Virus record (IMG/VR): IMGVR_UViG_651053023_000011
Span: 1 to 41,897 of that record
DNA length: 41,897 nucleotides
From: a virus
Taxonomy: Duplodnaviria > Heunggongvirae > Uroviricota > Caudoviricetes
Direction: 5' to 3' (one strand)
Shown here: positions 6,368-41,897 of the stretch, in pieces
Layout: each line of letters opens with the position of its first letter
Numbering within the stretch: position 1 is the stretch's first letter
Made by a program: the position numbers and the translations under genes
The notes under the pieces: model-generated
What the model was told of the DNA's origin: nothing
Databases searched by the model: none
What the model saw: only the letters and a program-made list of their open reading frames with translations

Positions 6368-6372
6368 GATTT

Positions 6373-6906
6373 TCAGCCCATCGGTTGATCTGGCGTGTCA
6401 GTGATCCCACCACCATCACCATTTTCGGTGTGTTTGTGGGCATTGTAGGTCTGCCGCATTTGCTGCATGCTGAGTCCGCCACTGTCGCAATTGTCAGTAA
6501 TATCAGCGGTGGATTCGACAGGCATTTCAAAGCGCGCTTTAGGCGCGTTTTGAAAAATAATGGGCTTCCCGCCCCCGTTCACCACAATACCGGAACGAGT
6601 CAGGACAACGGATTGCCCCTGATCGTCATAAAGCGCCACTTCCCCACGTTTCAGTCCTTTCAACCGGTAACGTCTGTCAGCCACGACCACAACCACACCA
6701 TGAGAACGATCGCCCGCCGGGAATAAAGCAACGCCCTCAGCACCGTTATGTGCAGCAGATGTAAAACCATAAGGCTCAAGGTGCTCAACGTGTTGTTTCT
6801 GATCTCCGGCTATCATTTTCAACCCTACAGACTGACACTTTCTGGCTGAATCCACCGCCGTGATGACAGCCCGGGAAATCAGATTGCGAAGAGAAAACCC
6901 GTTCAT
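6373..6906 (-). CDS. baseplate assembly protein V / spike (Mu gp45-like)
   Basis: 177-aa ORF with strong RBS (GAGGAGG) upstream; gpV-like sequence. Confidence 0.7.
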   Translation of the reverse strand: MNGFSLRNLISRAVITAVDSARKCQSVGLKMIAGDQKQHVEHLEPYGFTSAAHNGAEGVALFPAGDRSHGVVVVVADRRYRLKGLKRGEVALYDDQGQSVVLTRSGIVVNGGGKPIIFQNAPKARFEMPVESTADITDNCDSGGLSMQQMRQTYNAHKHTENGDGGGITDTPDQPMG

Positions 6907-7960
6907 CAGAAATCCTCCTCAACATTTTTTTCTTCCTGCCGGTAACAGGCTCGGGGAGATAAGCATCTGCCGGGCCAACCCGTAATTCAGTCGTCGTGCC
7001 CCGGTCGTCCTGGTTATAGGTGACTTCTGCGATCACCAGTTCATCATTATCAAAATTATTCAGCGGGTCGAAAACGATGACAGATAACCCCGGACGCCAT
7101 AACGCGCCACTGCCCTGCCGCCAGCCCTGAACCGTATATGTTGTCTCACGGGTAAGCGCAGCCCGTTGACGCGCTTCAAATTCACAACGGGCCTTACAGG
7201 TTGCTGTCGTTGCTGTGCCTGACTGCTGAATCAACAAAGGGCGATAACGGGTCACACCACTGTCCTGAATGGTCTGACGTATTGCGGCAATGGTGGCCTC
7301 ACCAAAATCATCATCGTTGCCCGGGCGCTGCCCACTGACCTGATATTCAGAAAACCGCTCTCTGATGCTTCTTTCCGTATCACAGGAAAGAATATTCTCT
7401 CCCAGCACCAGTGCTGTCGCCGCTTTGCCTGTTCCGGTTTTCCCCAGAACCAGTCGACCGCATTCATCGTCATAAGCCAGCGTCTGAACCTGCCCCAGCA
7501 ACCGGTTAAGACAATCGGCAACGGTTTCGCCGTGTTCCGGCTGGGCATCAATCACCGCTGTCTGCGGCACACCGGCGTCAACAACGGTGATGCCAAATGG
7601 CGCAGCCAGTTCACTGACGATTCTGAGCAGGTTTTTTCCGCTCTGCTGGACTGGCAAAGCAGAGCAGTCAACCAGATCGGCTGTTTTGCTTCGCCCGACA
7701 ATTCCCATGCTGACGCTGCTGGCGTCATAACGAAGCGGTAGAGCCTCCACATATCCGGTGAGCACGGGCTCATCCCCGATAAGCACTTCAACCAGCTCAC
7801 CATTTTTTATCCGGGGCTGATAATCCCGGCTTCCGGGCCAGCGGGTGGTAATGGCAACATTAAAATCCCGGGCAATACGGTTAATGCCCGCACTGATTCG
7901 GACGGATGTCCAGCCGCCCCATTCGCGACCAGAAACCCGAAGTAAAACGGTATTATTCAT
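6785..7960 (-). CDS. baseplate hub protein, Mu gp44 (P)-like / late control D family
   Basis: 391-aa ORF; its last ~40 codons overrun the gp45-like start; one extra base in the T7 run (~6925-6931) would end it exactly at the gp45 start. Confidence 0.7.
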   Translation of the reverse strand: MNNTVLLRVSGREWGGWTSVRISAGINRIARDFNVAITTRWPGSRDYQPRIKNGELVEVLIGDEPVLTGYVEALPLRYDASSVSMGIVGRSKTADLVDCSALPVQQSGKNLLRIVSELAAPFGITVVDAGVPQTAVIDAQPEHGETVADCLNRLLGQVQTLAYDDECGRLVLGKTGTGKAATALVLGENILSCDTERSIRERFSEYQVSGQRPGNDDDFGEATIAAIRQTIQDSGVTRYRPLLIQQSGTATTATCKARCEFEARQRAALTRETTYTVQGWRQGSGALWRPGLSVIVFDPLNNFDNDELVIAEVTYNQDDRGTTTELRVGPADAYLPEPVTGRKKKMLRRISDERVFSSQSDFPGCHHGGGFSQKVSVCRVENDSRRSETTR

Positions 7961-9348
7961 CTGACGGGTACCCTTAATGCCCTGATCGGAACAAAGCCCG
8001 GATGGGAGATGGCATTTCGATCCAGGATATCAGTTTCACGGGACGCATCGTCGTACCATGACGCAGCCAGAACAAGCGCAGGAAGAACCTCCGCTGGCGT
8101 TCGCTCTGCGGTCTCCTCCGTCTGAACCAGACGGGCCTGAATATCCCGGTTCAGTTCTGTACGTAATGACGTCAGCTGAAAAAACAGCCTGTCATCCGCC
8201 GCACGCCTGAGCTCCTGTTCAATCGCCGCGTTCAGCGATTCGCGTATGATGGTGAGATTTTCCCGCGTGGGTGGTTGCGCGGTCTCATCCTGCTCTGTGC
8301 TGGCTGCCACGCTGTCAAGCGCCGGATGAGAAACATGAATGATATCGGACTGACGTTCAGTGGAACCACCAACAGCCACAACCGCCTGCTGATTTTTCAC
8401 CAGACTTCCGGGTTGCGGCAGTGAAGTGACCGCCCTTGCAGCCTCGCTGATTGCCGTCGTCCGGATGACTGCAGCCACCAGATTTGTCTGCTGTTTTTGC
8501 CTGACAACCGATGCGGAATCTGTGGGCCACACAGCACGCGGTGCCAGTCCTGGATCCAGCGTAATACCTGACATTGTCGTTATGGACTGCACCAGATCCT
8601 GTGTGTTACCCACCAGTCTGGTTCCTGCCCGCCAGGTATCCTGCAACGTATGCACAAAATCACTGGCAACCGACGGCGGCATCAGAATGACGGATAAATC
8701 GCCCTGCAGTAGTCTCGCTCCGGCAGAAACAGCCGAATTAACCATTTTGAAAGCTGTCTGAACGGTTCCCAGCATATCGGTTGCCCGGGCAATAACATCG
8801 TTCTGAATAAAGTCCGATATTCCCGCGAGATCAAAATCGCCGAACATGTCTTCAATCAGCTCATCCAGGAATCCGGACGACTCCTCCAGTTTTCTGGCGG
8901 TTGCGGCTCCGGCGACCGGGAATGACAGTTCCCCGCTCTCAACAAACTGAAATGAAACCCGGCACATACGGCCTTCCGTGCTGGAATGAGAAACGGTCAC
9001 CTGTCCGTCAATACAACCCTGCATTTCACCGAACTGCGGATGGATCAGTGTCCCCGGCCCGGCGGTTTCAATCGCGGTAATCAGCCTGTCGCGCTGCTCT
9101 GCGTAATCATCACCAACGAGATACGCATTAATCGTCAGCCGTCGCGTGGCACGCCCGAGATCTTCCGTGTACGGTTTGTCACGGTTTGGGTATTCATGGA
9201 CCTGAACGCGGCGTCCGAACGAACCCTCGTCGCTTTCCACCGAAAACGGAACGCCACGAAATGAAGCATCGTAAAGATTATCGCGCCAATTGATACCTGA
9301 AGATGCAGAAAGGAGTGAAGAAAGAGAAGGTAAAGAAGGTAAGTCCAT
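7957..9348 (-). CDS. DNA circularization protein N-like (Mu gp43-like)
   Basis: 463-aa ORF between tape measure and baseplate hub genes; N-like sequence. Confidence 0.65.
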   Translation of the reverse strand: MDLPSLPSLSSLLSASSGINWRDNLYDASFRGVPFSVESDEGSFGRRVQVHEYPNRDKPYTEDLGRATRRLTINAYLVGDDYAEQRDRLITAIETAGPGTLIHPQFGEMQGCIDGQVTVSHSSTEGRMCRVSFQFVESGELSFPVAGAATARKLEESSGFLDELIEDMFGDFDLAGISDFIQNDVIARATDMLGTVQTAFKMVNSAVSAGARLLQGDLSVILMPPSVASDFVHTLQDTWRAGTRLVGNTQDLVQSITTMSGITLDPGLAPRAVWPTDSASVVRQKQQTNLVAAVIRTTAISEAARAVTSLPQPGSLVKNQQAVVAVGGSTERQSDIIHVSHPALDSVAASTEQDETAQPPTRENLTIIRESLNAAIEQELRRAADDRLFFQLTSLRTELNRDIQARLVQTEETAERTPAEVLPALVLAASWYDDASRETDILDRNAISHPGFVPIRALRVPVR

Positions 9349-9361
9349 ACTGTCTCCACTA

Positions 9362-9386
9362 TAAAAAAACCGCCAATTTCTGGCGG
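9362..9386 (-). terminator. rho-independent terminator after secreted-protein gene
   Basis: Dyad CCGCCA/TGGCGG with 5-nt loop followed on the minus strand by a T7 run. Confidence 0.5.
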
Positions 9387-9394
9387 CTTATATA

Positions 9395-9877
9395 TTAATC
9401 ATCACTAATATCTTTCATATTCAATTTGCAATTTTCGTAGGTCACTCCAGACTCGCCATTAACATTAACTCCAGCTCTGATATTCCCGTTTTCTTTTACA
9501 TCTACAAAAAACTGGCCTCTTGGCATCTTGAACACAAATGTAAAACCAACGGTATCTGAATCAAAATCATCATCTTTATATATTGGGATCAGATGTGTCA
9601 TCGTCGCTGGTGATGCATTGTTTGCAAAATCAAATACACCTATACTTTTGCCGAATTCATAAGAAGCTTTTCTCAATATAATCGCACCGCTGGCAGAAGG
9701 GGATGGGCACGATATCCTCAGTTGTCTGAATCCATCTGTATCCAAGTCAACATCATTATATGCAGATGCTTTAACGTTATTAACAAATCGTGAAGCAATC
9801 TCCGCATTTGTTAGTGTTTTCGCCTGAGCACAGCAAGAGGTTAATATTGCAACTGTCATTAAAAATGGCTTTATCAC
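9395..9877 (-). CDS. secreted protein of unknown function (moron in tail operon)
   Basis: 160-aa ORF with N-terminal signal peptide (MIKPFLMTVAILTSCCAQA/K); GTG start with GGAG upstream; visibly AT-rich relative to flanks; own terminator. Confidence 0.6.
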   Translation of the reverse strand: MIKPFLMTVAILTSCCAQAKTLTNAEIASRFVNNVKASAYNDVDLDTDGFRQLRISCPSPSASGAIILRKASYEFGKSIGVFDFANNASPATMTHLIPIYKDDDFDSDTVGFTFVFKMPRGQFFVDVKENGNIRAGVNVNGESGVTYENCKLNMKDISDD

Positions 9878-9944
9878 AAAACAAACTCCATTGTTAGCAT
9901 GTTACGCGATAATTTTGCCTCATCTCTCACCACAAAAAAAGAAT

Positions 9945-11894
9945 TCACCTTTTAAATGGAGAATACCCAACGTCATGGGTGATTTTCATAAAGGGATCGC
10001 CTGTTTTCGGCAAATCGATGACACGCATTCCCGGCGGCGCGTTGTCAAACGTCACCTTAAGTTCGCTGCGGGTTGCCGGTGACGATGAAAGGCTTAACAG
10101 TTGATTCCTTTCCAGTGATACATTCGGGATGTAGCGTTTATCTGGAGATAAATACCCATCACCACGTGGCATCTGCCATCCGGTCATGTCATAGACAAAA
10201 TCATGGAACTGTTTGCCCCACTCGTCGAACTTATCATTCAGACCAAATCCACTATTCAGTGCATCAGCCACAAAATTTTTAACAAGCCAGGGATGTTCTT
10301 TTTCAAACTCCTGCGCCATCATGCCCAGTTCAAGCAATCCACCAATCAGACTGATCTTACCAAGCCCCTTTAATTTCAGCGCCGTTTTTCCTGCCGCCGT
10401 TGTCCATTGATTCTGGGCGACTGTTGCTGCACGAATGGCTGCCACCGCTTTCACACCAATATACAGGGCAGAAACCGTTGCTATTGTTTTTACTGCCTGT
10501 TCCCATCCCCCCATTGCCCTGACAACCTGATCAACCTCCTGCCAGACTTTTTTCACAACCGGCCCGACCGTTTCCCAGTTGTCAATAATGAGATACGCCC
10601 CCGCTACCAGTAACGTAATGAGTCCCTTTGCCGGTGTCATATTCATCACGCTACCCATGATTTTTGTTATGCGTGTCAATGTGCCAATCGCCACGCCCAT
10701 CGTCAGTAATGCCGCACCAGTTTTCGCGATGGTTTTTACGACATCAGGATTTTCTCTGACAAACGTGCGCACTTCTTCCAGAAAAGGCTTCATCTCTTTT
10801 ATGCCTTCATTGATTGAAGGCAGGAAGGTTTCCCCCAACGTGGAAGAAATCGCATTGATCTGGTTCTGCAGCAGCAACAACTGATTTTCCGTCGTCGCGG
10901 CACGGGCGGCATATTCTTTCTGCATTGAGCCGCCATACTGCTGCGCATCCGCCACACGATTAAAATTGGTTCGCAACAAATCCAGATTCGTGAGCAGCGG
11001 CGCAATGGCTCCCAGAGACTCCTTCCCGAACAGCGCATTAAGCACAGCAGCCTGTTTTTCTTTCGGCACTTTCGCCAGAGAATCCAGTACGTGCAGCATG
11101 GCCCCACGGGCGTCTTTCTGCATATCCGCCGCCAGTTTTTTCGGGTCAATGCGCAACAGGCGAAGCGCTTTTTTCTGCGATTTGGTGGCAGAATTCCCCG
11201 CTGTCAGCGACAGCATAAAATTCTTTATCCCCGTCGCTGCAATTTCTGATTCCACCCCCATTCCGGCAATGGTTGCCCCCATTGCGGCAATCTCTCCGGA
11301 GGCCACACCCGCAACACTGCCTAAAGGGCCAATACGGGTCACAACATCAGAAATCTTTTTCGCACTTGCAGGACCAGTATTGCCAAGATAGTTAATCTTG
11401 TCCGCAAGTCCTGCCACTTCTCCCTGTGTCAGCTTAAAGGCTGTGCGCCACTGTGCCATCATCTGACCGGATTCTTCCGCCGTGGTGTCAAAGGCCACCC
11501 CCATCTTCACGGCGTCGTCAGTAAACTGCATCAGCTCGTCACGGGCGATGCCAGCCTGACCACCCGCCGCCACGATTTCGGCGATACCTTCCGCCGACAT
11601 GGGCAGTTCTGTTGACAGGTCGCGCACCTGTTCCGTCATTGCCTTAAACGCTTCCGGCGTATCCAGACCATCCACCACTTTCCGGACATCCGCCATTTTT
11701 GATTCAAGGGCAATGGCAGATTTGACCGGGAGCGCCAGCGCCCCCAGTACTGCGGTTCCGGCACCCGCTGCGCCCAGAGACAGGCTGGCAAACTCCTTTT
11801 TAAAGCCTTTCAGCTGGCGCTGCATCCCCTTCAGCGGTGCCGACACCTTATCCACGGCAGTGATGATCGCCTTCAGCTGAAAACTGTCAGCCAT
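9945..11894 (-). CDS. tail tape measure protein
   Basis: 649-aa ORF, Ala/Gly-rich with predicted coiled regions, downstream of chaperone pair. Confidence 0.85.
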   Translation of the reverse strand: MADSFQLKAIITAVDKVSAPLKGMQRQLKGFKKEFASLSLGAAGAGTAVLGALALPVKSAIALESKMADVRKVVDGLDTPEAFKAMTEQVRDLSTELPMSAEGIAEIVAAGGQAGIARDELMQFTDDAVKMGVAFDTTAEESGQMMAQWRTAFKLTQGEVAGLADKINYLGNTGPASAKKISDVVTRIGPLGSVAGVASGEIAAMGATIAGMGVESEIAATGIKNFMLSLTAGNSATKSQKKALRLLRIDPKKLAADMQKDARGAMLHVLDSLAKVPKEKQAAVLNALFGKESLGAIAPLLTNLDLLRTNFNRVADAQQYGGSMQKEYAARAATTENQLLLLQNQINAISSTLGETFLPSINEGIKEMKPFLEEVRTFVRENPDVVKTIAKTGAALLTMGVAIGTLTRITKIMGSVMNMTPAKGLITLLVAGAYLIIDNWETVGPVVKKVWQEVDQVVRAMGGWEQAVKTIATVSALYIGVKAVAAIRAATVAQNQWTTAAGKTALKLKGLGKISLIGGLLELGMMAQEFEKEHPWLVKNFVADALNSGFGLNDKFDEWGKQFHDFVYDMTGWQMPRGDGYLSPDKRYIPNVSLERNQLLSLSSSPATRSELKVTFDNAPPGMRVIDLPKTGDPFMKITHDVGYSPFKR

Positions 11895-12308
11895 GCTTCA
11901 TCTCCTCGTTAATGCGGACGGCCTCGGCTTCCAGTTCTGTAAACTGCGAAATAGCCACCCGTCGCAGCTCCAGTGGATTCAGTTTCCAGAACCAGGCAAC
12001 ATTGTAGAGTCGTTTCCGGAGGTGCTTCCCGTCTCCGACTGGGTAAAAAAACGCAGGATCTGCATGCTGGTCTTAAAAATATCCAGTTTTGCCATCTGCG
12101 CCGCCGATGAACGCGGGATCCCCGCCAGCAGCGGGATATATTTCAGTGCCACCTGGCTGTCCAGTTTAATACTGCCCTCACCGGAAATAATGAAAGGAAA
12201 ACCCAGGGCCTCGATTTCGTCATACGTGGGTTCACGCAACTCCAGCACATGCAGCGTTTCGTTATGCGCTGTCACCGGTTTTTTTAAAACAATTTCTGTC
12301 ACGCTCAT
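11887..12308 (-). CDS. tail assembly chaperone, -1 frameshift-extended form (GT-like)
   Basis: -1 frame is open from the T7 run (~12045-12051 on + strand as A7) for ~45 codons and ends overlapping the tape measure start codon. Confidence 0.45.
11979..12308 (-). CDS. tail assembly chaperone (G-like, short form)
   Basis: 109-aa ORF between tube and tape measure genes; contains U7 slippery run near its 3' end. Confidence 0.65.
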   Translation of the reverse strand: MSVTEIVLKKPVTAHNETLHVLELREPTYDEIEALGFPFIISGEGSIKLDSQVALKYIPLLAGIPRSSAAQMAKLDIFKTSMQILRFFTQSETGSTSGNDSTMLPGSGN

Positions 12309-12664
12309 TACTGATATCCTCCCTCTTCGCCGTGGAATTCAAGATCTGCCGTACCTTCTTCGGCATTATGGTTTGCTTCGCCATGCAGCCAGGCCGCCGA
12401 AAGCACATACACCATGCCGTTTGCCAGCTCGGCAGTAATCGTCATCTGGTCTGAGGCGGTAATTTTGTCGACCGGAAAATTTTTGGGCACTTTAAACGTG
12501 CCCTTAACGTAAGGTGACCGCCAGGTCTCCTTGTAATCCACATCACCAGCCATGCCGACGACATCATCCCGGACATTGGTGTTCATCGGCACTTCAATGC
12601 CACCTGTCAGCGATAACTGCTGACCATCCACTTTAAAAAAACAGGTTCCGGCGATCTTTGCCAT
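12308..12664 (-). CDS. tail tube protein (Mu gp40 / M-like)
   Basis: 118-aa ORF immediately after sheath gene with ATGA overlap. Confidence 0.8.
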   Translation of the reverse strand: MAKIAGTCFFKVDGQQLSLTGGIEVPMNTNVRDDVVGMAGDVDYKETWRSPYVKGTFKVPKNFPVDKITASDQMTITAELANGMVYVLSAAWLHGEANHNAEEGTADLEFHGEEGGYQ

Positions 12665-14160
12665 TATGCTGACTCCTCTGAATACTGGAGACGGAACTGG
12701 TTAACCACCGCAAAGACACGTAACTGGTTAACATAATCCGGCGGGAACAGCGTGTTCAGTCGGTTCGGGTTATCCGCATCACGCTCAACTATCAGATACT
12801 GTTTAAACAGATCGTAATTTTCCACAATACCGGCACGCTCCATCTGACGATATGTCGCCAGAAGCTCCCCTTTGATAACGGCAGGAGTAACAATCGCCTG
12901 CCCAGGACCAAAACGGGTACCATCATTTGCCAGCTTGTGGCGTCCGTACTTGCTTGTGATGACCGATTTCAGTTTGCGAAGAACATATGCGCTGGTATGC
13001 AGTGTTTCACTGTCCAGATAGCTGTTGTCTGCCACGCCATATGCATTCTTTTTGTATGTGGTTACGGAACGCTGGATCCGCAACGTGCCGCCTTCCACAT
13101 AAGCCGTCGCCACGCCGTGAGATAAAAGGGTCTGCTGCTCTGTCATGATGAATCGCTTACCTTTCGGTGCCGGAAGCATCCCCACCAGTTCCCCCGTCTG
13201 TGTCGGACGGGCCGGGTCATTGCGGATAAATACCGCTTCACGGGCAAGGCGACTGGCAACCAGTTCATCGACAGGCGACTGGGTTTCTTTTTCGTAACCG
13301 GCAAGCGTGATATGTTGCTGATTATGCATATCTCCGGCATTAACCAGCTCTGACAGCGTTCCCAGTTTTGCGGTATAGACATGCCCGTATAACTGGCGCG
13401 CATAACTCCAGCGACCGCTGCTGTCATTCATTTCGGTCATCATCATATTGATGGAGGCGGCATCGTTGAACGGCAGACCGATAAAGTCGAATGCCTCATC
13501 GCCCATAGCAGCAACAGCGGCGGTAAGATCAGGCGCGCCGCTACCCGCAGTTCCGGCTTCCGTCACGACCTGAAGCCCCGCAGGCAGAATCTCACCACCA
13601 CCAGAACCATAATAATTCAGGCAGACAGGCAACTCGTTACCATACAGCCCCTTATGGCGGGCAGTCAGCGTCACCACACCTGCATCAGATGACGCCGCAA
13701 ACGGCAGGGTGATAACCCCGTTTACCGCTTCCTTAATCGCGGTGGCAACCGCAGTGGCATCATCGCCATTCACCACAGGCACCTGTACACTGGAGCGCCC
13801 GACATACAGACTCAGGGTGCCGCTTTCCTCTGCTTCTCCGGTAACTGTCACCCTGACCGTCGCCGCCGCCCCTCTGGCTTCCGGTACTGCAATAACATAC
13901 AGTTCACCGAAAGGATCTGTCTGACGGTAGACGTCAACCATACGCGCCAGCTGGCTCCCGGCCCCACAAATCTGACGGGCATAATCTGCTGACGGCATCA
14001 GCACCAGGCTGTTAACCTCAATGGCGGCATCGTTGCTGGCATGCCCGATCAATAATGCAGGCGCGCTGGTCACTGCTGTATTTGCAGCAGAATTGTCCAT
14101 CTCGGCGTAAAACAACGGCACCAGCGTATCCGACGGAACAGCACTAAAACTTATTGTCAT
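12664..14160 (-). CDS. contractile tail sheath protein (Mu L-like)
   Basis: 498-aa ORF; sheath-like sequence and position. Confidence 0.9.
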   Translation of the reverse strand: MTISFSAVPSDTLVPLFYAEMDNSAANTAVTSAPALLIGHASNDAAIEVNSLVLMPSADYARQICGAGSQLARMVDVYRQTDPFGELYVIAVPEARGAAATVRVTVTGEAEESGTLSLYVGRSSVQVPVVNGDDATAVATAIKEAVNGVITLPFAASSDAGVVTLTARHKGLYGNELPVCLNYYGSGGGEILPAGLQVVTEAGTAGSGAPDLTAAVAAMGDEAFDFIGLPFNDAASINMMMTEMNDSSGRWSYARQLYGHVYTAKLGTLSELVNAGDMHNQQHITLAGYEKETQSPVDELVASRLAREAVFIRNDPARPTQTGELVGMLPAPKGKRFIMTEQQTLLSHGVATAYVEGGTLRIQRSVTTYKKNAYGVADNSYLDSETLHTSAYVLRKLKSVITSKYGRHKLANDGTRFGPGQAIVTPAVIKGELLATYRQMERAGIVENYDLFKQYLIVERDADNPNRLNTLFPPDYVNQLRVFAVVNQFRLQYSEESA

Positions 14161-14318
14161 GATTCTTTAGCCTTATCCTGTTTAACACGTACCACATCAC
14201 CCGCCGCTATACGGCGAAGCCAGTAGCTGTTTTCTTCCACATTTCGCCCGTCAGAAGGCAAAAGGTCTCCACGGGCAGGGTCAGGAACCGACCGCCCTTT
14301 CAGGGGTTTCACAAACAT
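14157..14318 (-). CDS. small Mu gp38-like protein (DUF2635-type)
   Basis: 53-aa ORF (MFVKPLKGRSVPDPARGDLLPSDGRNVEENSYWLRRIAAGDVVRVKQDKAKES) with stop overlapping sheath start; below the ORF-track size cutoff. Confidence 0.5.
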   Translation of the reverse strand: MFVKPLKGRSVPDPARGDLLPSDGRNVEENSYWLRRIAAGDVVRVKQDKAKES

Positions 14319-14327
14319 GAGGGACTC

Positions 14328-14889
14328 TTATTTCTGAGGGAAACGCATTTCCAGATGGTGCTCAAAGTCACCATCTGGGCCAGTACCAGGATCAATGTAA
14401 TCCACATCAATACTCAGCAGGATAAATCCGGCAGAGCATTCACGTCCTCTGCCTGTCGCGTGTCTTCTTCCGTGATTTCATACTTCGCCGTAAAATCAAA
14501 CTGGTAATACAGTTCGTAACGGTTCAGATCCAGCAGCGTGCCACCGGCATAAACAATCTCGCCCCCCTGCGGGTCCGGCATCCACCCAAGCAGGGCTTTC
14601 CAGAGTTCTCTACGACATCATGAACGGCGTCATAGGCTGCCCACTGCCCTTTTTCATCACGCTCATTGCTGAGCACAACAATAACGGAGAAGCCTTCTGT
14701 CAAATCCTGCCAGTAATCGGTCTGTGATTTTTGTTCCCCCGGCGCATCGTCAGAGGGGACAACATAGGCAGCAGGCAGACGCAGTTTTCCGGCATCAGGG
14801 ATCGCCTTAAACTGCGCTGCACCACCAACACGATTCTCAAAACGCGGGCATCGCTCACGCAACGCCGCAATTATTGTTGTCAGTTTCAT
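14328..14889 (-). pseudogene. Mu gp37-like (DUF1834-type) gene interrupted by two frameshifts
   Basis: Track ORF 14524..14889 ends in junk-like tail; coherent continuation (LWKALLGWMPDPQGGEIVYAGGTLLDLNRYELYYQFDFTAKYEITEEDTRQAEDVNALPD, then LSIDVDYIDPGTGPDGDFEHHLEMRFPQK) lies in two other frames. Confidence 0.5.
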
Positions 14890-15410
14890 TTATGCTTCCT
14901 TTTTACCGGACGTAACGAACACTGCAACTCACGGGACAACAGTTCCTGCGTCCAGTGACGCCGCCGCTCAATAACGTCAGCCATAAAGTTATTACGCGGG
15001 GCCAGCCGGAAAGCCGAAGAATGGTGCTTCTTCTGCCGCTTATCCTTTTTATCCATTCCATAAGCTGAATGGCGAACGCCGTAATACAGAAATGCCGGAT
15101 AATAGGGTGCGCCTTCAGGGAAACGGCGATTCCCCTGCCCGTTTTTCTGGTTAGGAGAAATTTTCACCATCAGTCCGGGGCGACGCGTCGTTTTTTTGGG
15201 AACGTAATAACCGATGGAGCGGGCCAGACGCCCGGTCTGATATCCCGGGTTCTCTCCCGGACCGGATCGTCCGCGTTTAATCACCAGACGTCTTGCGTCG
15301 CGCATATAGACGCGCCCGATCTGCACAAATGCCCGACGCAGACGGGCGCGATTAAACTCCAGCTCCTTTGGTTGTTTAAAGTCGACGTGTAAAAATGCTG
15401 TCTGATTCAT
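14886..15410 (-). CDS. HK97 gp10-like head-tail joining / tail completion protein
   Basis: ORF with internal ATG preceded by GGGGTGA; position between adaptor and tail genes. Confidence 0.5.
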   Translation of the reverse strand: MNQTAFLHVDFKQPKELEFNRARLRRAFVQIGRVYMRDARRLVIKRGRSGPGENPGYQTGRLARSIGYYVPKKTTRRPGLMVKISPNQKNGQGNRRFPEGAPYYPAFLYYGVRHSAYGMDKKDKRQKKHHSSAFRLAPRNNFMADVIERRRHWTQELLSRELQCSLRPVKRKHK

Positions 15411-15792
15411 GGCATTCACCCCGTCGTCGCGCTGTACGCAGTTCTTCACATTCCAGCAATAAAAAACGCCGCTGACCGTTCAGGTCGCGTATTCGCCGGA
15501 TCCGGTACTCCTGACCGTAATAAACCACCTCATGATCTGCCGTGATGTCGTGACGGAAACGGATCGTAAAATAATGCGTAACGATATTTTCTGTCTGCAC
15601 TGAGCCCTGATAAGCGGCAGCGCCTGGCTGAGCCACCTTTGCCCAGACATCAAACGACTCCGTATATGTCGGCTCCGTACCAAAATCAGCGGTGGGTTCA
15701 TCCACCCGAAGGCGGATCTTTATTCGGCGATTCAGCTCTCCGGGATCCGGTAAAAGGTAAGTGGCACTGGTCTGACTTTGTCTGATTTTCAT
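15376..15792 (-). CDS. head closure / head-tail adaptor protein
   Basis: ORF starting at MKIRQSQ with ATGA overlap to upstream gene; conserved position after connector. Confidence 0.55.
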   Translation of the reverse strand: MKIRQSQTSATYLLPDPGELNRRIKIRLRVDEPTADFGTEPTYTESFDVWAKVAQPGAAAYQGSVQTENIVTHYFTIRFRHDITADHEVVYYGQEYRIRRIRDLNGQRRFLLLECEELRTARRRGECHESDSIFTRRL

Positions 15793-16158: not shown

Positions 16159-17385
16159 TTACGCAGCGGCTTTCTGGCGGGTTGCAGCCCCAATTTTCAT
16201 CAGCTTAATCGCCTGAGAATCCACCAGCATACCGCCGGTTCGCTTGGTGGTATAAAAACCCACAAACGGTTTATTGGTGTACGGATCGCGCAGGATACGG
16301 GTACCGATGCGATCAACGATGGTATAGCCACGTTTGAAGTTACCAAACGCAATGGCTTTTGCATCGGCAGCAATATCCGGCATCTGTTCATTCTCAACGA
16401 TGCCATACCCTGCCAGAGAAGAAGGCTGACCCAGCTCAATACCCGGACGCCACAGATAATTTCCGTCGTTATCCTTCAGCAGACGAATGGCAAACAGGCT
16501 GCTGTTGTTCATCATGAACTTCGCGCCGCTGCGATGCGCCTTGCGCAGGGTGTAAATCAGTTTAATGATCGCATCGGCAGTCACGCCGGAAGCCGCACCG
16601 GAAGCAATGTGCTGAAGTTTGCCAAACGCACGGGTCTTGTCATCTTCATCGGTGGACTCATAAGCCAGAAAACCTTTTGGTTTTTTGCTGCCGTCGCCAC
16701 TGGTAAAGGCAATTTCTTCCTGTTCGGCAAATTCCAGCGCCAGCTCACTGTTGATCCAGTCTTCCACATTGAAGAAAGCATCATCGAGCATTTTCTGGGT
16801 GGCCTGCGGGTTGCCGTAGATTTCCCCCATAAAGGGTTCAATCAGCCCCAGTTTTGAGGTGGCGGTTTCCGAACGTGCATCCGTTTCCCCCACCCATCCG
16901 GACGTTGTGCCGCCCAGATTCACCAGTTTTTTATAATCCGAGCCACCGAGGGTGATCACGGTGGCTTCCTGGCGCATCACCACCTCATCTTTCAGCAGCG
17001 TCAGAATGGTGCGATCCAGTTCTTCCGGAATGGCATAACCACCATCTTCATCATTGCCCACCTGCAGCGCCTTACGCTCAAGCTCACGCAGACCGTCTTC
17101 ACGCCCCTTGCGCATAAATCCGATAAACGCTTCTTTATGTTCACTGGCAACTTTATTTTGCGTGCCGCCTGCCGGACGCTTAACTTCAGCCAGCTCAGCC
17201 TCAAGATCACTTTTCAGGTTTTCCAGTTCAGTCAGTTTTTCATTGAGGTTTTCCACTTCTCCGGCAAGTTTTCCCTTTTCCTGCTCGATCGCGTCGATAC
17301 GTTTGTCGTTTTTTGCCTTAAAATCGTCAAACTTCTGCTGCAAATCCTGCGCGACCTGTTCCACGTCTTTAATATCAACAGCCAT
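16159..17385 (-). CDS. major capsid protein, HK97 family
   Basis: 408-aa ORF with N-terminal coiled-coil delta-domain-like region and HK97-fold-like body. Confidence 0.9.
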   Translation of the reverse strand: MAVDIKDVEQVAQDLQQKFDDFKAKNDKRIDAIEQEKGKLAGEVENLNEKLTELENLKSDLEAELAEVKRPAGGTQNKVASEHKEAFIGFMRKGREDGLRELERKALQVGNDEDGGYAIPEELDRTILTLLKDEVVMRQEATVITLGGSDYKKLVNLGGTTSGWVGETDARSETATSKLGLIEPFMGEIYGNPQATQKMLDDAFFNVEDWINSELALEFAEQEEIAFTSGDGSKKPKGFLAYESTDEDDKTRAFGKLQHIASGAASGVTADAIIKLIYTLRKAHRSGAKFMMNNSSLFAIRLLKDNDGNYLWRPGIELGQPSSLAGYGIVENEQMPDIAADAKAIAFGNFKRGYTIVDRIGTRILRDPYTNKPFVGFYTTKRTGGMLVDSQAIKLMKIGAATRQKAAA

Positions 17386-21701: not shown

Positions 21702-21774
21702 AATCGGTTTTACCTATCAATCGTTTGATCGCATTCCCAAAAAAAGTTTTCGAACCTGCGGCGATGCGAGGAAG

Positions 21775-23109: not shown

Positions 23110-23620
23110 ATATTGCCATAATCTCTGACTGAATTTGCTCAAAAAATGACAATTCGGTTTTTGTGCCAGCCGCTGCATTTGCCGATGCTGCGGCTTTTTG
23201 TTTATTTTTTTTCAAAACATTCTCCTGCAGAATAAAAGCTGTCATCGTTTCAACTGAAAGTGAGGCCCGTCTTTCAGTGTTTTCCCAGTCCCCGCCCCAT
23301 TCGATGGCAGTTCCCAGCTCTGCGGCAGCCTGCTTAAATGCCTGTGCGATTTTCTCGTACAGAGGCCAGTCCCATGACACCTGGCTACCAACATAAGCCA
23401 CAACATCCACCGCATCACCGGTCAGGTGACGGCTGTTCATGGTCTGGCTTTTCCCTTCCGCGACCAGTTGTTTCTGGCGCTCTTTCGTGCGCAGACCTTC
23501 CGTAATACCGAAATCAACCTCCGTCAGTTCAAGGGCGCGGCGAACGACAGCAACCAGTTGTGGTTTGACGCCCTCCAGATTTTTTTCACTGCGGCGGCTG
23601 AATCTGAATTTACCCGACAT
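23090..23620 (-). CDS. endolysin, peptidase M15 family (L-Ala-D-Glu endopeptidase-like)
   Basis: ORF with SRHLTGDAVDV motif typical of M15/VanY-type zinc peptidases; follows two membrane-protein genes. Confidence 0.8.
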   Translation of the reverse strand: MSGKFRFSRRSEKNLEGVKPQLVAVVRRALELTEVDFGITEGLRTKERQKQLVAEGKSQTMNSRHLTGDAVDVVAYVGSQVSWDWPLYEKIAQAFKQAAAELGTAIEWGGDWENTERRASLSVETMTAFILQENVLKKNKQKAAASANAAAGTKTELSFFEQIQSEIMAIFNEVVR

Positions 23621-24367: not shown

Positions 24368-24520
24368 TTATTCAGATTTACGCAGTAAAGGCCAGAGTAC
24401 GGCCAGCGCCATCGCCACCAGCACACCATCTGCCAGCACCGACATCAGCCGTCCGGTGAAATCCACCGCCACTACCAGAAACAGCAGGATGGCAGCCAGC
24501 ACAAGGCGCGCACTTTTCAC
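24368..24520 (-). CDS. small hydrophobic peptide (about 50 aa)
   Basis: GTG start overlapping TerB-like stop (GTGA); two hydrophobic stretches; below track cutoff. Confidence 0.3.
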   Translation of the reverse strand: MKSARLVLAAILLFLVVAVDFTGRLMSVLADGVLVAMALAVLWPLLRKSE

Positions 24521-24942
24521 AGGTACTGCTCCAGCGGCAACTGCAGCGCCTGAGCAATTTTCTTGAGCTGCGCTTCTTCATCCGGACCAATGCCGTCCTG
24601 GTCAGCAATATCGAGACACAGGCACAGCACATCAACCGCTTCGGCGGTTCCTGCCACATCAGCCAGTTCACGCAAAGCCTGAGCATTCGCACTACGAGGT
24701 GACGCTTCATAACGGGCGCGGATATTTGCACTCATTTGTGCAATCTCACCGGAGAACGGCGCAAAGGCAGGAAGTGCTGCAATGGTTTTTTCCAGTACAG
24801 CGATTTCTTTCGCATCACAGGTGCCGTCGGCGAATGCTATGGAATACGCGCCCCAGACGGTCGCCTCCACTGCGTCGCGGTTCTCCATCTTCTTCACTTC
24901 AGTAATGGCCTTGCGGGTTTTCTTTTTGAAAATACCAAACAT
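24517..24942 (-). CDS. TerB-like domain protein
   Basis: 140-aa ORF with AAGGA RBS; paired acidic motifs (AFADGTCDAKEIAVLEK and LDIADQDGIGPDEEAQLKKIAQ) typical of TerB fold. Confidence 0.65.
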   Translation of the reverse strand: MFGIFKKKTRKAITEVKKMENRDAVEATVWGAYSIAFADGTCDAKEIAVLEKTIAALPAFAPFSGEIAQMSANIRARYEASPRSANAQALRELADVAGTAEAVDVLCLCLDIADQDGIGPDEEAQLKKIAQALQLPLEQYL

Positions 24943-24961
24943 CGTGACTTTTCCTTTTAGT

Positions 24962-25053
24962 GGGTGAGCCTGCGCCCGGGGGTGACCAGTCCACAGAGAA
25001 AGTCACACTGACCATCCCGTAAGCTCACCCCTGAAAGGCTCTGTGGTTTTTTT
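24962..25053 (-). other. structured leader with interleaved dyads upstream of TerB-like gene
   Basis: GGGTGAGC (24962-69) pairs GCTCACCC (25023-30); CCACAGAG (24991-98) pairs CTCTGTGG (25039-46); T7 run follows on + strand. Confidence 0.35.
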
Positions 25054-25126
25054 GATGTGCGCCGGGCGTGGCGCGGAAATAAAAAAGGCCCGCCGTAGCG
25101 AGCCGCATAAATACTGAATTCTGAAT

Positions 25127-25150
25127 AAAAAAAACCGCCTGGCGTGGCGG
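25127..25150 (-). terminator. rho-independent terminator downstream of tRNA genes
   Basis: CCGCC/GGCGG stem with 6-nt loop followed on the minus strand by T8. Confidence 0.5.
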
Positions 25151-25516
25151 TCTATGGCATAAAATGGCATGAAGAGAACGCGATGATTTTATTATGACCA
25201 GAGACGTCGGGTGCCTCCCGAAACATCCAGTCCTGCATGGATGCTGTGGTTTCCCGCAAAACCGACTCTTTCAACCACCCTCGCACTGAGGAACGTCTCT
25301 GGGGTGTTATTTACAACACCGGAATGATACATTACCAGCCCTGCCAGGAAATACAAATCTCCACCAGTAATGCACCATTCCACTATTGTAAAAAAACAGC
25401 ACTGGTACCGTAATAAATAATATTCATTACAGAACAGGATGTGGTAAGGAGTTAGGGTAAAACATCCCACACATATAATGTGTCAGTGCCTGAAACAGCC
25501 TGGCATCGTCCTCTGC

Positions 25517-25591
<75 letters not shown>

Positions 25592-25594
25592 ATA

Positions 25595-25670
<76 letters not shown>

Positions 25671-27686: not shown

Positions 27687-28769
27687 ATGAAAAAATTAAC
27701 AGTGGCAATCTCTGCTGTAGCAGCATCAGTATTGATGGCTATGTCCGCTCAGGCAGCTGAGATTTATAACAAAGACAGCAATAAATTAGATCTGTACGGA
27801 AAAGTTAATGCCGGGCACTACTTCTCCTCTAACGATAAACACGATGGTGACAAAACTTATGCTCGTCTGGGATTCAAAGGTGAAACCCAAATCAATGATC
27901 AACTGACTGGTTTCGGTCAGTGGGAATATGAATTCAAAGGCAACCGTGCTGAATCTCAAGGTTCCTCCGCAGACAAAACTCGTCTTGCATTTGCTGGTCT
28001 GAAATTCGGCGACTACGGCTCCATCGATTATGGTCGTAACTACGGTGTAGCATACGATATCGGTGCATGGACTAACGTTCTGCCAGAATTCGGTGGCGAT
28101 ACCTGGACCCAAACAGATGTATTCATGACTGAACGCACCACAGGTGTTGCAACTTATCGTAACAACGACTTCTTTGGTCTGGTTGAAGGTCTGAATTTTG
28201 CTGCTCAGTATCAGGGTAAAAATGACCACACTGACGTAACTCAAGCTAATGGTGATGGTTTCGGTTTCTCCACTACTTATGAGTATGAAGGATTCGGCGT
28301 AGGTGCAACCTATGCTAAATCTGACCGCACTAATAATAAGGTTATCTACGGTAACAACAGCCTGAATGCATCTGGTCAAAATGCTGAAGTATGGGCAGCT
28401 GGTCTGAAATATGACGCTAACAACATTTACTTGGCCACTACCTATTCTGAAACCCAGAATATGACGGTATTTGCTGATCGCTTCGTCGCTAATAAAGCTC
28501 AGAACGTTGAGGCTGTTGCACAATATCAGTTCGATTTTGGGCTGCGTCCGTCCGTGGCTTACCTGCAATCTAAAGGTAAAGATCTCGGAGTATGGGGCGC
28601 TCAAGACTTAGTTAAATATGTTGATGTAGGCGCAACCTATTACTTCAACAAAAATATGTCCACTTTTGTTGACTACAAAATCAACCTGATTGATAAGAGC
28701 GATTTCACGAAAGCATCTGGCGTTGCTACCGATGATATCGTTGCTGTAGGTATGGTTTACCAGTTCTAA
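27687..28769 (+). CDS. outer membrane general porin (OmpC/NmpC/Lc-like), prophage-encoded
   Basis: 360-aa ORF with AAGGA RBS, signal peptide ending AQA, N-terminal [17 protein letters not shown]-terminal ...YQF. Confidence 0.9.
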
Positions 28770-39891: not shown

Positions 39892-40134
39892 ATGTTCGCT
39901 TTGATTAATCAGGGACAACTGTATACCGACAGTGCCGGTTACCCGGTAAAAATTATTCGCTGCATAAATAACACTGTGTTGTACAGAAGAATGGATGGGC
40001 GAACACAGTCGGTAAAAATAAACGATTTTAATGAACTGTTTGAACGGCTCGATCACCAGGAATACCGACAAATTCTGGCAGAAACAGAACTGGAAACTCA
40101 TCTGAAAAAATTACGGGCCATGAAAAGGAAATAA
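39892..40134 (+). CDS. hypothetical small protein
   Basis: 80-aa ORF from ATG preceded by AGGAGA. Confidence 0.5.
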   Translation: MFALINQGQLYTDSAGYPVKIIRCINNTVLYRRMDGRTQSVKINDFNELFERLDHQEYRQILAETELETHLKKLRAMKRK

Positions 40135-40137
40135 AGA

Positions 40138-40284
40138 ATGAATAAAGCGTTTGAGCTATGGGTACGCCAGCGTTACGGCAATCGCTATGACCTGACGCGA
40201 GATGTTGACGGTTTCTACTGCCGTGAAATTGTGAAACGAATGTTTGAAGTGTGGTGCCACTGCCGTGGGCTGAGTGTTGTGTGA
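40138..40284 (+). CDS. hypothetical small Cys-containing protein (48 aa)
   Basis: ATG preceded by AAGGAA; below track cutoff. Confidence 0.4.
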   Translation: MNKAFELWVRQRYGNRYDLTRDVDGFYCREIVKRMFEVWCHCRGLSVV

Positions 40285-40292
40285 GGTAATGC

Positions 40293-40529
40293 ATGGGCAA
40301 TGTGATTCAACTGGCTCCCAATGAATGGGTTTGTGAAAGCGTTCTTATCGCAATTACCGGGCTCAAACCAGGCACAATTCTCCGGGCCCGGAAAGAATGC
40401 TGGATGGTAGGAAGAGAGTATATTCACGTATCGCCTGACGGTAATCCAAAACCTTCCAGCGAATGTATGTATAACAGAAAAGCAATCGATGCCTGGGTCG
40501 CTTCAATGAAAAACAAACAACCTGGGTGA
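40293..40529 (+). CDS. excisionase-like protein
   Basis: 78-aa basic ORF with GAGGTAA RBS immediately upstream of integrase. Confidence 0.5.
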   Translation: MGNVIQLAPNEWVCESVLIAITGLKPGTILRARKECWMVGREYIHVSPDGNPKPSSECMYNRKAIDAWVASMKNKQPG

Positions 40530-40584
40530 TTTAATACCATGAAATATGTAAGCTCATATCGCTCTTGGGCGTCTGGAGGTATCG

Positions 40585-40836
40585 ATGGATAAAGTCAAAT
40601 ATCCAACAGGCGTCGAAAACCACGGTGGCACATTACGCATCTGGTTTAATTTTAAAGGTAAACGTGTCAGGGAAAATCTTGGTGTCCCTGACACTGCCAA
40701 GAACAGGAAGATCGCCGGAGAGCTGCGGACATCTGTATGTTTTGCCATTCGTACAGGAAACTTTGATTACGCTGCGCAGTTCCCTGACTCTCCTAACCTC
40801 AAGGCTTTTGGGGTAAATAAAAAGAAATTACGGTGA
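40585..40836 (+). CDS. int: integrase N-terminal arm-type DNA-binding domain (separated from catalytic domain by apparent frameshift)
   Basis: 83-aa ORF (TGVENHGGTLRIWFNFKGKRVRENLG...FDYAAQFP) typical of arm-binding domains of tyrosine integrases; stops in an A-run. Confidence 0.7.
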   Translation: MDKVKYPTGVENHGGTLRIWFNFKGKRVRENLGVPDTAKNRKIAGELRTSVCFAIRTGNFDYAAQFPDSPNLKAFGVNKKKLR

Positions 40837-41897
40837 AAGAACTTGAAAAAAAGTGGCTGGATCTGAAACGCATGGAAATCTCTGCAAATGCATTCAATCG
40901 CTATGAGTCCGTTGCAAGAACAATGATTCCGAAAATTGGAGGTAGCAGACTGGTGTCAACGGTGACCAAAGAGGAATTGCTGTATATCAGGAAAGATTTG
41001 CTGACCGGATATCAGAATTCAACGAAAGACAAAGCACCAGCAAGAGGACGGAGCGTCGTTACTGTAAATTATTATATGACGACAATCGCTGGAATGTTTC
41101 AGTTTGCTGCAGATCACGGTTACTTAGAAGCAAACCCCTTCGAGGGAATTAAGCCTCTTAAAAAAGCCAGGGCAGAGCCAGATCCGCTAACTCGTGACGA
41201 ATTTATTCGCCTGATAGATGCTTGCCGGCATCAGCAGACAAAAAACCTGTGGTCATTGGCTGTGTACACAGGAATGCGTCATGGTGAGCTGGTCTCCCTG
41301 GCCTGGGAAGATATCGATCTGAAAGCAGGAACAATTACTATCAGGCGCAATTATACGAAACTCGGTGAGTTCACTCTACCTAAAACTGAAGCAAGTACAA
41401 ACAGGGTTGTGCATCTTATCCAGCCCGCTATCAGTGTCCTGAAAAATCAGGCTGAAATGACAAGACTGGGTAAGCAGCACCACATCAAGGTTCAACTACG
41501 TGAATATGGACGTTCAGTGAATCATGAATGTACTTTCGTATTCAACCCCCAGGTGGTTAGAAAAAGCAAACAGGTAGGTTTTATCTACAAGGTAGATTCC
41601 ATTGGCGACTCATGGGAAACAGCCATTAAGCGTGCAGGCATCAGGCATCGAAAGGCATACCAGTCACGACACACTTATGCGTGCTGGTCATTATCTGCCG
41701 GAGCAAATCCAAGCTTCATTGCCAGCCAGATGGGCCATGCCAGTGCCCAGATGGTTTTCAATGTATACGGAGCATGGATGACTGACAGCAATGCAGAACA
41801 GATCGCAATGCTGAATCAGAAGCTGGCAGATTATGTCCCAATGATGTCCCATAGTCACCAAAGTGACACAAGAGGCCTATTAAAATCAGTGGGTTAG
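40833..41897 (+). CDS. int: tyrosine recombinase / integrase, core-binding and catalytic domains
   Basis: 354-aa ORF with catalytic motifs (R...HxxR in SRHTYACW, C-terminal Tyr region); begins at GTG just after arm-domain stop; ends at window edge. Confidence 0.8.
   Translation: MKELEKKWLDLKRMEISANAFNRYESVARTMIPKIGGSRLVSTVTKEELLYIRKDLLTGYQNSTKDKAPARGRSVVTVNYYMTTIAGMFQFAADHGYLEANPFEGIKPLKKARAEPDPLTRDEFIRLIDACRHQQTKNLWSLAVYTGMRHGELVSLAWEDIDLKAGTITIRRNYTKLGEFTLPKTEASTNRVVHLIQPAISVLKNQAEMTRLGKQHHIKVQLREYGRSVNHECTFVFNPQVVRKSKQVGFIYKVDSIGDSWETAIKRAGIRHRKAYQSRHTYACWSLSAGANPSFIASQMGHASAQMVFNVYGAWMTDSNAEQIAMLNQKLADYVPMMSHSHQSDTRGLLKSVG

What the first reader, a model, noticed from the sequence alone, without database searches (positions are those of the whole stretch)
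40585..41897. Integrase split by an apparent single-base deletion in an A-run
The arm-binding domain (40585..40836) and catalytic domain (40833..41897) lie in different frames. Adding one A to the A5 run at ~40819-40823 gives a continuous reading (GVNKKEITVKELEKKW) typical of arm-type integrases. Either a sequencing error or a real inactivating mutation that would lock the prophage in place while leaving its cargo functional.
Basis: seen in the sequence. Interest (0 to 1): 0.5.

Follow-up and report, generated by a model that had tools for sequence, protein, structure and literature searches.

The report
Frameshifted phiP27-type prophage integrase gene
This is an ordinary, well-known phage integrase gene that reads as two pieces because one A is missing from a six-A run; the cause is most likely a sequencing or assembly slip, because the same window has four more one-base slips in other conserved phage genes.

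Summary
ORF 40585..40836 holds the arm-binding domain (PF12167). ORF 40833..41897 holds the catalytic domain (PF00589) and lies in the -1 frame. One extra A in the A5 run at 40819-40823 restores a 437-aa integrase. At DNA level the repaired gene is identical to the integrase of E. coli P13-6, and its protein is about 99.7% identical to phage phiP27 Int, which integrates at yecE.

Every intact relative checked has A6: 3 phages, 109 IMG/VR contigs and about 109 finished E. coli genomes sampled from 327. The split is therefore a derived lesion, not a conserved or programmed frameshift. No stimulatory RNA structure follows it.

The lesion is not isolated. The window has four more private one-base indels that break conserved genes: baseplate hub, tail terminator (twice) and endolysin. 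Comparators have none in coding sequence. The A5 allele was found in four other sequences, each on a different haplotype and each with further single-base indels nearby.

Best reading: a base-calling or assembly artefact (about 0.65). Main rival: a real, multiply defective prophage (about 0.3). Both are ordinary. The window carries no stx genes. Interest is low.

The parts
40585..41897 (+). int gene of a phiP27-family prophage, reading as two ORFs because one base is missing
   Evidence: 99.8% identical to phiP27 int/xis DNA. After repair, identical to the P13-6 integrase gene with 0 substitutions.
40585..40836 (+). ORF1, 83 aa: N-terminal arm-type DNA-binding domain plus 5 out-of-frame codons and a stop
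   Evidence: PF12167 Arm-DNA-bind_2, residues 7-70, E 2.4e-25. 100% identical to phiP27 Int residues 1-77.
40819..40823 (+). A5 run, the site of the missing base (A6 in relatives); codons AAT AAA AAG in the ORF1 frame
40833..41897 (+). ORF2, 354 aa from GTG: core-binding region and catalytic tyrosine-recombinase domain, in the -1 frame relative to ORF1
   Evidence: PF00589, E 1.4e-18. 99.7% identical to phiP27 Int residues 80-437. Aligns to the XerA catalytic motifs.
40293..40529 (+). excisionase gene (xis), intact
   Evidence: PF06806, E 9.5e-33. 100% identical to phiP27 L02.
6925..6931 (-). T7 run (T8 in four references): private one-base deletion near the 3' end of the baseplate-hub gene (L49 homologue); the ORF runs on to 391 aa instead of 351
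14419..14422 (-). G2 (G3 in four references): private one-base deletion in the tail-terminator gene (L43 homologue)
14613..14616 (-). Second private one-base deletion in the same tail-terminator gene; the ORF is cut to 121 aa instead of 187 and homology continues in two other frames
23281..23284 (-). C3 on the + strand (C2 in phiP27 and P13-6): private one-base insertion near the 3' end of the M15 endolysin gene; it fuses the gene to the next ORF (178 aa instead of 125)
   Evidence: The surrounding 561 nt are otherwise identical to P13-6.

Best explanation
The region is the integrase gene of a Stx-negative phiP27-family prophage that integrates at yecE. The gene encodes a 437-aa arm-type tyrosine recombinase. 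It has an N-terminal arm-binding domain, a linker and core-binding region, and a C-terminal catalytic domain, and an excisionase gene sits just upstream. In this window the gene reads as two ORFs because one A is missing from an A6 run in the linker, at codons N78-K79-K80. The most likely cause is a base-calling or assembly undercall, one of at least five single-base indel errors in this 42-kb sequence. On that reading the real gene is intact and the phage integrates and excises normally. Shown: the deletion is derived and private, the other private indels exist, and A5 is absent from finished genomes. Inferred: that the cause is technical and not biological.
For: (1) The state is derived. A6, or the equivalent extra base, and an intact 436/437-aa ORF are present in phiP27 and PhiR49_2 (CharmingMan has a different but in-frame sequence of the same length), in 109 IMG/VR contigs and in all of about 109 distinct finished E. 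coli genomes sampled from the 327 that carry the gene.
(2) The lesion is fresh. Window 40092-41897 has 0 substitutions against the intact P13-6 allele and differs only by this gap.
(3) It is not isolated. Four further window-private one-base indels lie in conserved CDS: T8->T7 at 6925-6931, G3->G2 at about 14420, a deletion at about 14615, and C2->C3 at about 23284. At each site 2-4 independent references agree with each other against the window. Comparators have no private single-base indel in coding sequence. Fisher p = 0.014 for 5800-15700 and 0.034 for both regions combined.
(4) All five lesions are frameshifts. No window homologue of a phiP27 protein is cut short other than at the five indel sites. 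The endolysin lesion also sits in 561 nt otherwise identical to P13-6.
(5) The other four sequences with A5 are on different haplotypes (40-70 substitutions apart among the window, L006 and L007; L120 is 60 substitutions from the window, L121 25). L006 and L007 each have an A6 twin 0-1 substitutions away. All four carry more single-base indels: L006 in the SPFH gene, L007 at two sites, L120 an A7->A6 loss in the host gene yecE, and L121 nine indels in 1.5 kb, mostly in homopolymers.
(6) The A5 allele was found in no metagenome contig and in no GTDB representative genome.
Against: No reads or quality values are available, so the cause cannot be proved. Three of the five lesions are in very short runs (2-3 nt). 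Where a close comparator exists, the longer runs are called the same as in it, for example A7 at 40846-40852 and T8 at 23205-23212. That is not the classic long-homopolymer error profile. The statistical excess of private indels is moderate (p 0.014-0.034). Real prophage decay also produces homopolymer indels. The other A5 sequences were found by searching for A5, so their number says nothing about frequency.
Confidence: 0.65

Rival explanations
1. The deletion is a real, very recent mutation in a prophage that is becoming defective. Int would be truncated after the arm-binding domain. The tail terminator, baseplate hub and endolysin would also be hit. The element could then neither excise efficiently nor make tails, and would persist as a cryptic prophage whose porin, TerB-like and tRNA cargo stays expressed.
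For: The sequence as given contains the lesions. Homopolymer runs are also the natural hot spots for replication slippage. Several lesions in one element fit relaxed selection after a first inactivating hit. Cargo ORFs are intact: the porin at 27687..28769, the TerB-like ORF at 24517..24942 and two tRNAs.
Against: There are five frameshifts but no nonsense mutation, IS insertion or deletion, and no window homologue of a phiP27 protein is cut short other than at the five indel sites. There are zero substitutions in the 1.8 kb around the int lesion and zero in the 561 nt around the endolysin lesion relative to an intact relative. With an assumed indel-to-substitution ratio of about 1:10 (my assumption for E. 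coli), two such indel-first stretches have a probability of about 0.008. No finished genome among about 109 sampled has the lesion. No related strain shares it: the other A5 alleles lie on other haplotypes.
Confidence: 0.3
2. The two-ORF arrangement is decoded by -1 ribosomal frameshifting. tRNA-Lys slips on A_AAG (context U_AAA_AAG, 40818-40824) into the ORF2 frame. This would give ...N-K-K-E-I-T-V..., exactly the wild-type protein, either as a programmed device or as leaky rescue of a real deletion (attenuated excision).
For: In the ORF1 frame the codons are AAT AAA AAG. A -1 slip on AAG leads to GAA ATT ACG GTG and so restores the wild-type residues (my reading of the sequence). A_AA.G is the most shift-prone tetramer in E. 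coli (PMC4066793). Rescue of indels by low-level frameshifting is documented, for example in HSV thymidine kinase (PMC5009743).
Against: The arrangement is not conserved: none of about 220 intact relatives has the two-frame layout, so it is not programmed. The motif is not an X_XXY_YYZ heptamer, because its first base is U. No stable structure follows the site (MFE -10.1 kcal/mol, z = 0.24). Without a stimulator, tetramer motifs averaged about 0.15% against a background of about 0.11% (PMC4066793). Rescue, if any, would therefore be near background.
Confidence: 0.03
3. A split integrase. ORF2 is translated on its own by coupling at the overlapping stop and start (GTGA, 40833-40836). The separate arm-binding and catalytic polypeptides would then cooperate in trans.
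For: The GTG at 40833 overlaps the TGA of ORF1. Both domains are complete on either side of the break.
Against: I see no recognisable Shine-Dalgarno sequence upstream of the GTG (AAAGAAATTACGGTG). No relative has this layout. The arrangement follows trivially from a one-base deletion.
Confidence: 0.02

Closest known systems
Integrase of Stx2e phage phiP27 (NP_543053.1, P27p01) and its allele in E. coli O141:H4 P13-6 (WP_000361999.1)
   Same: Same gene. Residues 1-77 are 100% and residues 80-437 are 99.7% identical to phiP27 Int. There are 0 nucleotide substitutions against the P13-6 allele. The same xis gene lies upstream. Relatives sit next to yecE/DUF72, the documented phiP27 integration site (Recktenwald & Schmidt 2002, cited in PMC8065619 and PMC3491183).
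   Different: One A is missing (A5 instead of A6), so the gene reads as 83 aa plus 354 aa. The surrounding prophage is a mosaic without stx2e.
Lambda-type (arm-binding) tyrosine integrases, e.g. lambda Int (PDB 1z1b)
   Same: Same architecture: an N-terminal arm-type DNA-binding domain, a core-binding region and a C-terminal catalytic domain, with a partner excisionase.
   Different: Sequence similarity to lambda Int is only distant (E 0.006). The arm-binding domain belongs to Pfam family PF12167 (Arm-DNA-bind_2).
-1 frameshift sites of dnaX and IS elements (A_AAA_AAG, A_AAG)
   Same: Contains A_AAG, and the downstream ORF is in the -1 frame (PMC4066793).
   Different: There is no conserved two-frame layout, no canonical heptamer and no stimulatory structure. 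It arises from a deletion in a normally in-frame gene.
Homopolymer indel errors of error-prone sequencing and assembly
   Same: These are single-base gains or losses in mononucleotide runs that split conserved genes. They co-occur at several sites in one sequence, and the same A6->A5 change appears in a read-set assembly with nine indels in 1.5 kb (L121).
   Different: Several lesions are in runs of only 2-3 bases, and many longer runs match the comparators. The platform is unknown.

Membership tests
Tyrosine recombinase / phage integrase (Pfam PF00589) | C-terminal catalytic domain matching the family profile above the curated cut-off | tested here: met
   PF00589: 67.7 bits against a cut-off of 27.1, ORF2 residues 119-312. 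Also matches XerA and other solved recombinases.
Tyrosine recombinase / phage integrase (Pfam PF00589) | Catalytic residues present (Arg-I, the His/Arg box, the nucleophilic Tyr) | tested here: inconclusive
   YTGMRHGEL aligns with Arg-I of XerA, and SRHTYA and MGHAS align with box II. The Tyr in NVYGAW was seen by eye but lies outside the printed alignment. The residue aligned to the first His of HxxR is Tyr. ORF2 is 99.7% identical to phiP27 Int, so nothing here looks specific to this window.
Arm-type (lambda-like) phage integrase | N-terminal arm-type DNA-binding domain on the same polypeptide as the catalytic domain | tested here: not met
   The domain is present (PF12167, E 2.4e-25) but lies in a separate reading frame in this window.
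Arm-type (lambda-like) phage integrase | Adjacent excisionase and a position at the prophage end next to the attachment site | tested here: met
   xis at 40293..40529 is PF06806. In P13-6 and STEC309 the int stop overlaps yecE/DUF72. The window ends at the int stop codon, so the att site itself is not in the window.
Programmed -1 ribosomal frameshift | Two-frame arrangement conserved among homologues | tested here: not met
   113 of 113 A6 sequences in the fetched set are in frame (phiP27 is counted twice there). All of about 109 sampled finished genomes have the extra base.
Programmed -1 ribosomal frameshift | Slippery X_XXY_YYZ heptamer | tested here: inconclusive
   U_AAA_AAG: only the A_AAG tetramer is canonical (motif rules from PMC4066793).
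Programmed -1 ribosomal frameshift | Stimulatory downstream structure or a suitably spaced upstream SD | tested here: not met
   Fold of 40825-40905: MFE -10.1 kcal/mol, z = 0.24, and 116 of 200 shuffles fold at least as well.
Genuine pseudogene (real inactivating mutation) | Lesion confirmed in reads or independent sequencing of the same strain | not testable with these tools
   No reads and no source record are available.
Genuine pseudogene (real inactivating mutation) | Lesion inherited by related strains, or accompanied by other signs of decay (substitutions, nonsense codons, IS elements, deletions) | tested here: not met
   The other A5 alleles lie on different haplotypes. There are 0 substitutions in 1.8 kb against the intact allele. 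The only other damage is four more single-base indels.
Sequencing/assembly indel artefact | Several single-base indels private to the sequence that disrupt genes intact in all relatives | tested here: met
   Five sites in 41.9 kb and none in comparator CDS; Fisher p = 0.014 and 0.034.
Sequencing/assembly indel artefact | Discordance with the underlying reads or low quality at the site | not testable with these tools
   No read data.

The most novel reading that the evidence does not exclude
The A6 run in the Int linker is a real, recurrent mutational switch. A6->A5 would arise independently in different phiP27-family prophages (five haplotypes seen). It would shut off excision, while rare -1 slippage of tRNA-Lys on A_AAG regenerates the exact wild-type Int at a very low level. 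This would be a 'saviour-indel' style attenuation that stabilises lysogeny without fully losing mobility.
Probability: 0.04. Interest if true: 0.45.

Novelty: already known. Interest (0 to 1): 0.08.

Why it matters
It matters mainly for annotation. The gene should be treated as the ordinary phiP27-family integrase with a suspected frameshift error, not as two genes, a novel split recombinase or a recoding site. The window as a whole should be read knowing that it contains at least five single-base indels that break conserved genes. Any other truncated, fused or split ORF found in it needs the same check against relatives. If the lesions proved real, the element would be a multiply defective cryptic prophage, which is a common and well-understood fate of prophages.

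Tried and rejected
(1) Programmed frameshifting: rejected because the two-frame layout is absent from every relative and no structure follows the site.
(2) Transcriptional slippage rescue: not pursued. A5 is far below the run length of about 8-9 that, to my knowledge, E. coli RNA polymerase needs for appreciable slippage.
(3) A shared-ancestry explanation for the other A5 alleles: rejected. They are 40-70 substitutions apart, and L006 and L007 each have an A6 twin 0-1 substitutions away.
(4) Exact-match scans for the A5 allele in GTDB representative genomes and in metagenome contigs found nothing.
(5) Looking for the window's own source failed. No contig of this length or allele is in IMG/VR, INPHARED, the RefSeq complete E. 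coli genomes or the gene-position index, so platform and reads remain unknown.
(6) The idea that phiP27 (Sanger, 2001) is the erroneous side at the tail-terminator and baseplate sites: rejected, because three independent finished genomes agree with phiP27.
(7) The first literature query returned nothing because of phrase handling. A second query found the paper.
(8) The split-gene scan also flagged single-reference junctions at about 21740, 32360 and 34890. The one at 21740 is an intergenic A-run polymorphism that P13-6 shares. The other two lie at mosaic boundaries and were not pursued.
(9) A 4-reference private-change count was spoiled by a partial phiP27 HSP and was redone with full-length references.

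Full report
OBSERVATION. The window contains ORF1 at 40585..40836 (ATG, 83 aa) and ORF2 at 40833..41897 (GTG, 354 aa). The two starts are 248 nt apart, so ORF2 is in the -1 frame relative to ORF1. The only A5 run in the overlap zone is at 40819-40823, and an A7 run follows at 40846-40852. Adding one A gives an uninterrupted 437-aa protein. Pfam finds the arm-type DNA-binding domain PF12167 in ORF1 (E 2.4e-25) and the catalytic domain PF00589 in ORF2 (E 1.4e-18). It also finds an excisionase (PF06806) just upstream at 40293..40529.

WHAT THE ELEMENT IS. The int-xis end is 99.8% identical to Stx2e phage phiP27, 94.9% to phage PhiR49_2 and 80.9% to phage CharmingMan. In all three the integrase is one 1314-nt CDS. 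The whole window is a mosaic phiP27-family prophage. It has terminase, portal, capsid, sheath, tube, tape measure and baseplate genes, and homologues of most phiP27 proteins. In E. coli chromosomes the integrase stop codon overlaps yecE/DUF72. This is the published phiP27 integration site (Recktenwald & Schmidt 2002, as cited in PMC8065619 and PMC3491183). The window starts at the stop codon of the last tail-fibre gene and ends at the int stop codon, so the att sites are outside it. It has no stx genes. The equivalent slot holds tRNA-Gly, tRNA-Thr, a TerB-like ORF and a small ORF matching the DUF3927 gene annotated in P13-6. An OmpC-like porin gene lies at 27687..28769.

THE LESION IS DERIVED AND PRIVATE. 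The alignment shows A6 in phiP27 and PhiR49_2 where the window has A5, and a different, in-frame sequence of equal length in CharmingMan. An exact-match scan of IMG/VR found 109 contigs with the A6 allele and 2 with A5. All full-length A6 copies encode an intact protein of 436 or 437 aa. The gene is present in 327 of 5426 finished E. coli genomes. In the 60 best and 60 evenly spread hits, about 109 distinct genomes, the match is always one base longer than the query, or one longer and three shorter in the 436-aa variant. The window's gene differs from the P13-6 allele by this single gap and nothing else. From 40092 to 41897 there are no substitutions.

THE LESION IS NOT ISOLATED. tblastn with phiP27 proteins shows that, besides int, the tail-terminator homologue (L43) is spread over three frames and cut to 121 aa instead of 187. 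The baseplate-hub homologue (L49) loses its last residues and runs on to 391 aa instead of 351. The M15 endolysin (L30) is fused to the next ORF, giving 178 aa instead of 125. Alignments against phiP27 and three independent finished genomes (STEC309, 401651, A36) show the references agreeing with each other against the window at 6925-6931 (T8 versus T7), at about 14420 (G3 versus G2) and at about 14615 (one base missing). At about 23284 both phiP27 and P13-6 have one base fewer, in 561 nt otherwise identical to P13-6. In the same alignments the comparators have no private single-base indel in coding sequence. Their only ones, near window positions 14165 and 39887, lie between genes. The excess in the window is moderately significant: Fisher p = 0.014 for 5800-15700 and 0.034 with the int end added. 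A scan with 2072 ORFs from all fetched relatives found multi-reference frame junctions only at about 14420, about 14600 and the int site.

THE OTHER A5 SEQUENCES. Four other sequences carry A5: two IMG/VR contigs (L006, L007) and two Logan read-set assemblies that encode the identical 83-aa product (L120, L121). They are on different haplotypes. L006, L007 and the window are 40-70 substitutions apart, while L006 and L007 each have an A6 twin 0-1 substitutions away. L120 is 60 substitutions and L121 25 substitutions from the window. Each has more single-base indels close by. L006 has one that shortens the conserved SPFH/lipoprotein gene. L007 has two. L120 has A7->A6 in the host gene yecE. L121 has nine indels in 1.5 kb, mostly in homopolymers. 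So A6->A5 at this spot demonstrably arises in error-laden sequence, and I did not find it in any clean one. These four were found by searching for A5, so their number is not a frequency estimate.

MECHANISM AND RIVALS. The gene product is a standard arm-type tyrosine integrase. With Xis it would catalyse integration and excision at yecE; this function is inferred from family membership and the near-identity to phiP27 Int. I rate an artefactual split at about 0.65. The grounds are the five fresh frameshifts with no other kind of damage, the zero substitutions around two of them, the absence of A5 from finished genomes, and the company A5 keeps elsewhere. A real, multiply defective prophage is the main rival at about 0.3. 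Homopolymers are natural slippage sites. Three of the five lesions are in runs of only 2-3 bases. Many longer runs in the window match the comparators. Without reads the question cannot be closed. If the lesions are real, the prophage has lost tail and lysis functions as well as Int, so 'locked in place with working cargo' is only part of the picture.

Programmed frameshifting is rejected as a designed feature. In the A5 allele the ORF1 frame reads AAT AAA AAG, and a -1 slip of tRNA-Lys on A_AAG would restore exactly the wild-type ...NKKEITV... sequence. However, the layout is not conserved, the heptamer is not canonical, and no structure follows (z = 0.24). Unstimulated tetramer motifs in E. 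coli averaged about 0.15% against a background of about 0.11% (PMC4066793). Low-level rescue of a real indel is known in other systems (PMC5009743) but would be near background here. A two-polypeptide integrase made by coupling at the overlapping GTGA has no support beyond the overlap itself.

COMPARISON AND NOVELTY. After repair the gene is an already catalogued protein. It has the P13-6 allele's nucleotide sequence and is 99.7% identical to phiP27 Int. Frameshifted integrases and homopolymer miscalls are both routine. Nothing here lies outside known kinds.

VERDICT. The interpretation (one-base deletion in the A-run, either error or real) is supported, with the balance towards error. Novelty: already known. 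Interest: low (0.08). The useful by-product is a warning that this window contains at least five single-base indels that break conserved genes.

Noticed in passing
window 6925-6931; 14419-14422; 14613-16; 23281-23284: Four further window-private single-base indels break the baseplate-hub, tail-terminator (two hits) and M15 endolysin genes. Two to four independent references agree against the window at each site.
   Followed up: yes
window 24368-25670: The slot that holds stx2e in phiP27 carries a TerB-like ORF (24517..24942, - strand), a small ORF (24368..24520) matching the DUF3927 gene annotated in P13-6, and tRNA-Gly(tcc) and tRNA-Thr(tgt). The window has no StxA or StxB homologue.
   Followed up: partly
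window 27687-28769 (+): An intact 360-aa OmpC/OmpF-like porin gene with a signal peptide lies in a segment that matches neither phiP27 nor the P13-6 prophage. It is a likely lysogenic-conversion cargo gene. Related prophages in the E. coli search also list ompC.
   Followed up: no
window 1-4 and 41895-41897: Both ends of the window coincide with stop codons: the last tail-fibre gene on the - strand and int on the + strand. The window seems to be trimmed at gene boundaries, and attL/attR and the yecE junctions are not included.
   Followed up: partly
L120 (Logan SRR364093) ~2554-2560: A contig with the same A5 integrase allele on another haplotype also has an A7->A6 loss that splits the host gene yecE/DUF72 into 159-aa and 67-aa ORFs. 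Upstream of int it has an SSB gene.
   Followed up: partly
window ~41630-41660 (ORF2 'YQSRHTYA'): In the alignment to XerA, the residue at the first His of the HxxR box is Tyr in this integrase. ORF2 differs from phiP27 Int at only one of 358 aligned residues, so this looks like a family trait, not damage. I did not check the position directly in relatives.
   Followed up: partly
window 17376-17378: A private in-frame 3-nt insertion relative to phiP27 and STEC309 lies at the very start of the major capsid gene.
   Followed up: no
window ~32360 and ~34890: The split-gene scan flagged possible frame junctions here, supported by only one or two reference ORFs. They lie at mosaic boundaries near the Ant-like gene and were not resolved.
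   Followed up: no
window 9352-9954: An extra segment lies between the tape-measure and DNA-circularisation genes. It is absent from phiP27 but present in the STEC309, 401651 and A36 prophages, which annotate a 160-aa hypothetical protein there.
   Followed up: no
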